Source: Naegleria gruberi
Taxonomy: Eukaryota
Strand: one strand, 5' to 3'
Assembly (NCBI GenBank): GCA_000004985.1
Contig: GG738972.1
DNA: 47,655 bases
The first letter of the stretch is position 1. Every line of letters starts with the position of its first letter. Positions 35,367 through 35,546 of the stretch are shown one piece after another. The notes beneath the pieces are model-generated. The model had not been told where the DNA came from. It did not search any database and saw only the letters and a list, made by a program, of their open reading frames with translations. A program made the position numbers and the translations under genes.

Positions 35367-35546
35367 ATGTCATCACGCAAATCGCTCTCCTCACTCAACA
35401 ATTCTAAACTCATCAACACCCAAGCACCAACAAAGAGAACCAAAGTTTTCTTTGATGTTACTATCGCAGGAAAGGATGCCGGACGTATTGTTATGGAACT
35501 TTTCGATGATATGTACCAAAAACTGCTGAAAATTTTAGATGTCTCT
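35367..35546 (+). CDS. Start of a cyclophilin-type peptidyl-prolyl cis-trans isomerase gene, with a Ser/Lys-rich N-terminal extension. The frame is disrupted at about 35511.
   Basis: ATG at 35367 (aaaaaaaATGtca) opens [48 protein letters not shown]. The -1 frame from 35513 then reads [11 protein letters not shown]. Together these form the conserved cyclophilin N-terminal signature VFFD.TI.G...GRIVMEL..D(I/V)[11 protein letters not shown], closest to nematode cyn-type cyclophilins. The rest of the gene is masked. Confidence 0.7.

What the first reader, a model, noticed from the sequence alone, without database searches (positions are those of the whole stretch)
35505..35515. Apparent 1-nt frameshift inside the most conserved cyclophilin motif
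Frame A reads ...[10 protein letters not shown] and then continues MYQKLLKILDVS, which is not cyclophilin-like. The -1 frame starting at 35513 reads [11 protein letters not shown], the conserved [11 protein letters not shown] block, but it has a TGA at 35507-35509 immediately upstream. The two conserved halves therefore cannot be joined without adding one nucleotide at 35511-35512. Restoring gatgatatTgtacca would give [15 protein letters not shown], an exact match to the near-universal (A/D)D(I/V)VPKTAENFR. The options are a base-call or assembly error at a TT dinucleotide, a recently inactivated paralogue (pseudogene), or, least likely, recoding. There is no canonical X XXY YYZ slippery site at the junction, although an AAAAAAC run lies 7 nt downstream.
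Basis: partly seen in the sequence, partly recalled or inferred. Interest (0 to 1): 0.5.

Follow-up and report, generated by a model that had tools for sequence, protein, structure and literature searches.

The report
One-base gap breaks Naegleria cyclophilin gene
The deposited Naegleria gruberi sequence lacks one base inside the first exon of an otherwise normal-looking cyclophilin gene; this is either a base-call error in the old Sanger draft or a very recent knockout mutation, and nothing suggests a special decoding mechanism, so it is ordinary.

Summary
Frame 0 runs from ATG 35367 and reads M1...[10 protein letters not shown], ending at 35510. Two leftover bases (AT, 35511-35512) follow. 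The -1 frame then reads [11 protein letters not shown] (35513-35545), with a TGA at 35507-35509 just upstream. tblastn places the two halves in adjacent frames and colinear in the query. Adding one base gives a peptide that passes Pfam's cyclophilin threshold; the sequence as read hits nothing.

The window is a whole 47,655-bp nuclear scaffold of Naegleria gruberi NEG-M, a Sanger-only draft. No intron can restore the frame. The visible coding sequence has no X XXY YYZ slippery site, and the nearby A-run is only five bases long.

The rest of the gene is masked from 35547 and I could not recover it. I found no independent copy of the locus in the protein collections or the JGI metagenomes. The choice between consensus error (about 0.5) and genuine one-base deletion, meaning a null allele or young pseudogene (about 0.4), therefore stays open. 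Recoding or editing is about 0.04.

Ile is favoured at the broken codon (76 of 212 homologues; Met 0 of 212). Interest is low.

The parts
35367..35441 (+). Start codon and 25-residue N-terminal extension ([25 protein letters not shown]). It is basic, rich in Ser/Asn/Lys/Leu and has no acidic residue, so it may be an organelle-targeting presequence. That role is inferred, not tested.
   Evidence: There is an in-frame stop upstream at 35304 and an A-rich context before the ATG.
35442..35510 (+). Frame-0 part of the cyclophilin domain: [23 protein letters not shown] (first beta-strands).
   Evidence: tblastn frame +3 match to intact cyclophilins at 63-69% identity. Pfam PF00160 profile positions 2-31 are matched once the sequence is repaired.
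35511..35512 (+). The two leftover bases (AT) of the broken codon; one base is missing here.
   Evidence: Homologues carry I (76/212) or V (108/212) at this position.
35507..35509 (+). TGA in the -1 frame. It stops the VPKTAENFR frame from being extended upstream to any start codon.
35513..35545 (+). The -1-frame continuation of the cyclophilin domain: [11 protein letters not shown].
   Evidence: tblastn frame +2 match at 91-100% identity.
35518..35522 (+). A5 run (CAAAAAC). It is the only homopolymer near the junction, is too short for transcriptional slippage, and is not part of an X XXY YYZ heptamer.
35547..39928 (.). Masked sequence (N) that should hold the rest of the cyclophilin gene (CTGEKG... 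onwards). It could not be examined.
   Evidence: The relative L001 continues with CTGEKG... after an intron of about 375 nt.

Best explanation
This is exon 1 of a nuclear cyclophilin-A/D-type peptidyl-prolyl isomerase gene of Naegleria gruberi NEG-M. In the deposited sequence it is one base short between Asp48 and the Val of VPKTAENFR. Most likely the base was dropped from the consensus of the 2010 Sanger-only draft assembly, probably the third base of an Ile codon, ATN. On that reading the real gene is intact and encodes ...[28 protein letters not shown]..., with no biological mechanism involved. Shown: the gene family, the exact position and size of the defect, the organism, the absence of recoding or splicing signals, and the absence of any second lesion in the visible 180 nt. 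Inferred: that the missing base is an artefact and not a mutation.
For: The two halves are colinear in adjacent frames, and repair restores a Pfam PF00160 hit above the curated cutoff. The repaired 20-mer exists exactly in a natural protein. Apart from the single gap, everything visible is clean. The 48 codons before the gap are open from an ATG, and the 11 codons after it match the most conserved motif of the family (VPKTAENFR exact in P0008; 10 of 11 residues in P0212 and P0171). The conserved core is 74-81% identical to intact eukaryotic cyclophilins. The window is a small, whole 47,655-bp scaffold of the N. gruberi NEG-M assembly, which is Sanger-only (PMC9928731 Table 1). From general knowledge, 8x Sanger drafts leave roughly 1% of bases at 2x coverage or less, where single-base indel errors concentrate, and I expect on the order of a hundred false frameshifts genome-wide. 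That figure is my own estimate, not computed here. No annotated N. gruberi protein contains this exon, as expected if gene modelling failed at a frameshift.
Against: No reads, traces, ESTs or second assembly could be inspected, so the artefact is not demonstrated. The site is not a homopolymer, and at normal coverage Sanger consensus indels at such sites are rare. Cyclophilins are multi-copy and Naegleria is a heterozygous diploid, so a real null allele or dead paralogue would be tolerated. The rest of the gene is masked and may carry further lesions.
Confidence: 0.5

Rival explanations
1. There is a genuine one-base deletion in the genome: a heterozygous null allele captured by the consensus, or a recently inactivated cyclophilin paralogue (young pseudogene, or a relic exon). 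As written, the gene would give a 48-residue N-terminus followed by out-of-frame sequence, so no functional cyclophilin.
For: The sequence as deposited carries the defect. Naegleria is described as mainly a heterozygous diploid with loss-of-heterozygosity and ploidy changes (PMC9928731). Cyclophilins are a multi-gene family, so loss of one copy should be tolerated (general knowledge). NEG-M is a long-propagated axenic laboratory strain (general knowledge). No protein with this N-terminus, intact or not, was found in the public collections searched.
Against: Only one lesion is visible and the flanking codons are perfectly conserved, so any inactivation must be very recent. The absence of an intact copy from the collections is weak evidence, because no independent N. 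gruberi assembly or transcriptome appeared to be indexed.
Confidence: 0.4
2. Programmed -1 ribosomal frameshifting or transcriptional slippage joins the two halves, so a functional cyclophilin is made from the sequence as written.
For: A -1 shift right after ATG 35511 would give [12 protein letters not shown]. A -1 shift on the A5 run would give DDMYQKTAENFR. Both products have the correct length.
Against: There is no X XXY YYZ heptamer anywhere in the visible CDS. tRNA-Met on AUG cannot re-pair with UAU. The A5 run is shorter than the roughly 8-9 As needed for efficient transcriptional slippage (general knowledge). A shift at the A-run would replace the conserved Val-Pro, yet those residues are encoded exactly in the -1 frame. 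Met was not seen at this position in 212 homologues. A downstream stimulatory structure cannot be assessed because only 24 nt are visible before the mask. To my knowledge, programmed frameshifting has not been reported in Naegleria nuclear genes.
Confidence: 0.03
3. Single-nucleotide insertional RNA editing restores the frame in the mRNA, for example a G next to the encoded G or a U next to the encoded U.
For: In the heterolobosean amoeba BB2, about 500 single nucleotides (mostly G) are inserted into mitochondrial RNAs, each identical to a neighbouring encoded base, and this resolves apparent frameshifts (PMC5421314). A G or U insertion at ATGTA would formally fit that rule.
Against: That system is mitochondrial and was found in BB2, a member of a clade sister to all other Heterolobosea (PMC5421314). 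The passages I read describe the Naegleria mitochondrial genomes without mentioning editing. This scaffold is nuclear: it has a 55-nt GTATGT...TAG spliceosomal intron in the neighbouring gene, a tRNA-Ala gene, 34% GC and nuclear-type genes. One isolated site is not a pattern.
Confidence: 0.01

Closest known systems
Cyclophilin-type peptidyl-prolyl cis-trans isomerases (Pfam PF00160), single-domain CypA/CypD-like
   Same: It has the N-terminal beta-strand block [15 protein letters not shown] and the [11 protein letters not shown] motif. The conserved core is 74-81% identical to intact eukaryotic cyclophilins. The basic presequence is reminiscent of mitochondrial isoforms such as CypD/Cpr3, and P0001 has a comparable extension.
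   Different: The reading frame is broken by one missing base inside the domain. Only about 31 of the 159 profile positions are visible, so the catalytic Arg/Phe/Gln/Trp/His residues could not be checked.
Single-base indel errors in draft (Sanger) genome assemblies
   Same: There is one isolated frameshift in an otherwise perfectly conserved gene, in an unpolished Sanger-only draft and on a small scaffold.
   Different: This has not been demonstrated because no reads were available. The site is not a homopolymer.
Young unprocessed pseudogenes or heterozygous loss-of-function alleles
   Same: A single disabling frameshift in one member of a multi-copy family, in a heterozygous diploid.
   Different: No second lesion is visible, and expression and allelic status are unknown.
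Programmed -1 ribosomal frameshifting (viral gag-pol type, dnaX type)
   Same: Two conserved halves of one protein lie in the 0 and -1 frames.
   Different: There is no slippery heptamer, no assessable stimulatory structure and no precedent in this organism. The junction is constrained to a 2-nt interval where no tRNA re-pairing is possible.
Mononucleotide insertional RNA editing in heterolobosean BB2 mitochondria (PMC5421314)
   Same: A single missing nucleotide that could be identical to a neighbouring base would restore the frame.
   Different: That system is mitochondrial, covers the whole mitochondrial transcriptome, and is known from a different lineage. Here there is one site in a nuclear gene.

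Membership tests
Cyclophilin PPIase (PF00160) | Sequence match to the family profile above the curated threshold | tested here: met
   Met only after one base is restored: 25 bits against a cutoff of 21.7, profile positions 2-31 of 159. The sequence as read gives no hit.
Cyclophilin PPIase (PF00160) | Complete domain of about 160 residues with the catalytic/CsA-binding residues (Arg55, Phe60, Gln63, Trp121, His126 in human CypA numbering) | not testable with these tools
   The sequence from 35547 onward is masked, and the annotated protein or unmasked DNA could not be retrieved.
Cyclophilin PPIase (PF00160) | Uninterrupted reading frame through the domain (functional gene) | tested here: not met
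   A one-base deficit at 35511-35512 and a TGA in the -1 frame at 35507-35509.
Programmed -1 ribosomal frameshift site | Slippery heptamer X XXY YYZ in the zero frame at the shift point | tested here: not met
   There is none in 35367-35546. The junction is confined to GAU GAU AU|G UAC.
Programmed -1 ribosomal frameshift site | Stimulatory stem-loop or pseudoknot 5-9 nt downstream | not testable with these tools
   Only about 24-34 nt are visible downstream before the mask.
Spliceosomal intron bridging the frames | A GT...AG interval with length of 2 mod 3 that keeps both conserved halves | tested here: not met
   The only candidate (35369-35538, 170 nt) deletes almost the whole exon. The neighbouring gene's real intron is 55 nt, whereas the gap here is 2 nt.
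Assembly/base-call error | Underlying reads or an independent assembly show the extra base | not testable with these tools
   No reads were available. No independent copy was found in the protein collections, by exact-protein look-ups or in the JGI metagenomes.
Pseudogene | Additional disabling lesions, relaxed constraint or lack of expression | tested here: inconclusive
   No second lesion appears in the visible 180 nt. The remainder is masked and no expression data were available.
Insertional RNA editing (BB2 type) | Transcript carries non-encoded nucleotides; organellar; many sites | not testable with these tools
   No transcript data were available. The scaffold is nuclear, which argues against this.

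The most novel reading that the evidence does not exclude
The genomic sequence is correct and the cell still makes a full cyclophilin from it. This would happen either by non-canonical -1 frameshifting at GAU-AUG-UAC or the A5 run, or by single-nucleotide insertional editing of a nuclear mRNA resembling the mitochondrial editing of the heterolobosean BB2.
Probability: 0.03. Interest if true: 0.8.

Novelty: already known. Interest (0 to 1): 0.1.

Why it matters
It matters little biologically. In practice it flags a cyclophilin gene, possibly an organelle-targeted isoform, that appears to be missing from or truncated in the N. gruberi protein set because of a single-base defect. If the defect is an assembly error, the reference should be corrected and the gene added to cyclophilin inventories for Naegleria. 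If it is real, it is one more young pseudogene or null allele in a heterozygous laboratory strain. The site would be notable only if gDNA lacks the base and mRNA or protein shows it restored.

Tried and rejected
1. Representative-library search. I gave window:35368-35510, which is off by one base (the ATG is at 35367), so the wrong frame was searched.
2. First protein search with the 60-aa repaired peptide. It returned only proteins of 105 aa or less, apparently because of a length window, so full-length cyclophilins were excluded. The best hits (P0001-P0004) are from other organisms.
3. Chimeric query, repaired exon 1 plus the L001 core. There were 8000 candidates. None of the 120 listed hits was named Naegleria or lay on a 47,655-bp contig, and of the six I inspected for unusually high coverage or score none carries the MSSRKSL N-terminus. 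An N. gruberi model lacking exon 1 could have fallen outside the scored or listed set.
4. Recovering unmasked DNA with the look-up of encoding contigs, using P0109 and four window ORFs. None is on record.
5. Exact-DNA scan of the JGI metagenomes with a junction pattern allowing a 2- or 3-nt spacer. There were no matches.
6. Protein-guided metagenome scan. It returned 80 loci. The best, L005, is 48.5% GC and fungus-like. I inspected only L005; no locus exceeded 74% identity or 53% across the whole peptide, so I did not recognise a Naegleria relative.
7. Intron rescue is rejected, and a canonical slippery site is rejected.
8. The N. fowleri PPIase crystal structure turned out to be an FKBP, so it could not serve as a Naegleria cyclophilin core.
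9. The N. gruberi genome paper (Cell 2010) is not held.
10. I could not work out the rule behind the masking. It does not follow annotated CDS (P0109's exons are partly visible) or codon boundaries, so I cannot say whether any of the N run after 35546 is a real assembly gap. A real gap there would favour the error reading.

Full report
**What is visible.** Only four stretches of the 47,655-base window are unmasked: 1-1058, 33384-35546, 39929-41419 and 46375-47655, at about 34% GC. The finding lies 35 nt before the start of a 4.4-kb masked block.

**Checking the observation.**
- An ORF opens at ATG 35367 in an A-rich context, with an in-frame stop upstream at 35304.
- It reads [48 protein letters not shown], with the two Asp codons at 35505-35510.
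- Frame 0 then continues MYQKLLKILDVS, which is not cyclophilin-like.
- The -1 frame reads TGA (35507-35509), TAT, and then [11 protein letters not shown] (35513-35545).

In tblastn with three intact cyclophilins, the first block falls in frame +3 and the second in frame +2. The two blocks abut and are colinear in the query, and no other cyclophilin-like segment is visible in the window. With one base restored, the 60-residue peptide scores 25 bits on Pfam PF00160 (curated cutoff 21.7); the peptide as read gives no hit. The restored string [20 protein letters not shown] occurs exactly in a natural protein, P0008.

- The downstream run is CAAAAAC, five As at 35518-35522, not six.
- The proposed repair is not the only one. 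The leftover AT could come from ATT, ATC or ATA (Ile) or from ATG (Met, by loss of a G from ATG GTA). Ile is therefore the best guess, but the identity of the missing base is unknown.

**What the locus is.** The neighbouring minus-strand gene is 100% identical to XP_002668704.1 / EFC35960.1, "predicted protein, partial [Naegleria gruberi]", on a contig of exactly 47,655 bp. The window is therefore a complete small scaffold of the N. gruberi NEG-M assembly. That assembly is Sanger-only, 40.9 Mb and 35% GC (PMC9928731 Table 1).

The scaffold is nuclear. The neighbouring gene has a 55-nt GTATGT...TAG spliceosomal intron (34389-34443), and there is a tRNA-Ala(AGC) gene at 46913-46986.

The broken gene is a single-domain cyclophilin of the CypA/CypD type. 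Its conserved core is 74-81% identical to intact eukaryotic cyclophilins. It carries a 25-residue basic N-terminal extension with no acidic residue, which could be an organelle-targeting presequence; that role is an inference and was not tested. In a relative from an ENA metagenome (L001), exon 1 ends inside the Leu codon of FRCL and the gene resumes with CTGEKG... after about 375 nt. Here the exon runs at least one base further before the mask begins.

**Can the sequence as written still make a cyclophilin?**
- Splicing cannot help. Both conserved halves must be kept, so any intron would have to fit in the 2-nt interval 35511-35512. The only GT...AG interval of the right phase (170 nt) deletes nearly the whole exon.
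- A downstream start is not available. The -1 frame has a TGA immediately upstream and no ATG.
- Canonical -1 frameshifting has no substrate. No X XXY YYZ heptamer exists anywhere in the visible coding sequence. At the only position that preserves both halves (GAU GAU AUG|UAC), the P-site tRNA cannot re-pair.
- A slip on the A5 run would give DDMYQKTAENFR, replacing the Val-Pro that the -1 frame encodes exactly. Five As is also well below the length known to support transcriptional slippage (general knowledge).
- A downstream stimulatory structure cannot be assessed because of the mask.
- Insertional editing has a formal precedent in Heterolobosea. In BB2, mitochondrial transcripts receive about 500 single-nucleotide insertions, each identical to a neighbouring base (PMC5421314). 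That system is mitochondrial, belongs to a different lineage, and affects nearly every mitochondrial gene; here there is one site in a nuclear gene.

I put recoding and editing together at about 4%.

**Error or real mutation?** This is the question that matters, and I could not settle it.

I tried several routes to the masked remainder of the gene or to an independent copy of the locus:
- Exact-protein look-ups for P0109 and four window ORFs all failed.
- The 60-aa search returned only proteins of 105 aa or less, none from Naegleria.
- A chimeric full-length query found no protein with this N-terminus among 8000 scored candidates.
- An exact junction pattern allowing a 2- or 3-nt spacer found nothing in the JGI metagenomes.
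- A protein-guided metagenome scan gave nothing I could recognise as a Naegleria relative; the best locus, the only one I inspected, is fungus-like.
- My single representative-library job was wasted on a wrong-frame query, because I gave a start coordinate one base off. It counts for nothing.

What remains is circumstantial.

For an error:
- The assembly is an unpolished Sanger draft and the scaffold is small.
- The defect is the only lesion in 180 visible bases of otherwise clean coding sequence, and VPKTAENFR itself is an exact match to the family motif.
- No annotated protein contains the exon, as would happen if gene modelling failed at a frameshift.

For a real deletion:
- The site is not a homopolymer, and Sanger consensus at normal coverage rarely drops a base there.
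- Naegleria is a heterozygous diploid.
- Cyclophilins are multi-copy, so a null allele or dead paralogue would be tolerated.

My rough expectation is comparable numbers of false and true single-lesion frameshifts in such a genome. That is an estimate from general knowledge, not a computation. The lack of any second lesion tilts it slightly towards error. I give about 0.5 for error and about 0.4 for a real young null allele or pseudogene.

**Comparison with what is known, and verdict.** The gene belongs to the cyclophilin family by sequence, but only about 31 of the 159 profile positions are visible, and the "intact ORF" criterion fails as the sequence stands. The defect behaves like the two most ordinary kinds of frameshift, a draft-assembly indel or a young loss-of-function allele, and fails the one testable criterion for programmed frameshifting. 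Neither outcome is novel, so interest is low (0.1). The useful output is a precise, cheap test. Look at the NEG-M traces or any gDNA and RNA reads across scaffold positions 35,490-35,530, and translate the -1 frame beyond 35,547.

Noticed in passing
window 33384-34513 (minus strand): The neighbouring gene XP_002668704.1 / EFC35960.1 is a P-loop NTPase-like protein (APSGTGKTS) with no significant Pfam hit. Its ATG is at 34513 and it has a 55-nt intron at 34389-34443. The annotated model leaves the ORF after ...LLLIEK (about 33520). However, the read-through ORF (SQKEPSILDPFEGSLLSFLAFNQFNGS...) aligns to the homologue P0110 (45% over 49 aa, E 2e-13). The annotated second intron therefore probably removes real coding sequence.
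   Followed up: partly
window 46913-46986 (+): A tRNA-Ala (anticodon AGC) gene found by ARAGORN.
   Followed up: no
window 40661-41299 (minus strand): An ORF encoding Sel1 repeats (Pfam PF08238, E 2.3e-29, three repeats). There is a stop just upstream of its first possible start, so the true start or an upstream exon is unclear.
   Followed up: no
window 39929-40446 (+): The C-terminal end of a gene emerging from the mask. It encodes several hydrophobic, probably membrane-spanning segments and ends at a stop at 40444-40446.
   Followed up: no
window 35547, 39928 and the other mask edges: The mask boundaries follow neither annotated CDS (the exons of XP_002668704.1 are partly visible) nor codon boundaries. 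It therefore cannot be excluded that part of the N run starting 35 nt after the frameshift is a true assembly gap. If it is, the defect sits at a contig end, where Sanger errors are most common.
   Followed up: no
L001 1916-2812 (ENA metagenome ERZ27251800): The closest intact relative of exon 1 is an AT-rich eukaryotic cyclophilin gene. It has a phase-2 intron of about 375 nt inside the Leu codon of FRCL. P0001 (NCBI GCA_041443045.1) is a longer form of the same protein with an extra N-terminal presequence (MFRRTLFSKSLNNLVK) that loosely resembles the Naegleria extension.
   Followed up: partly
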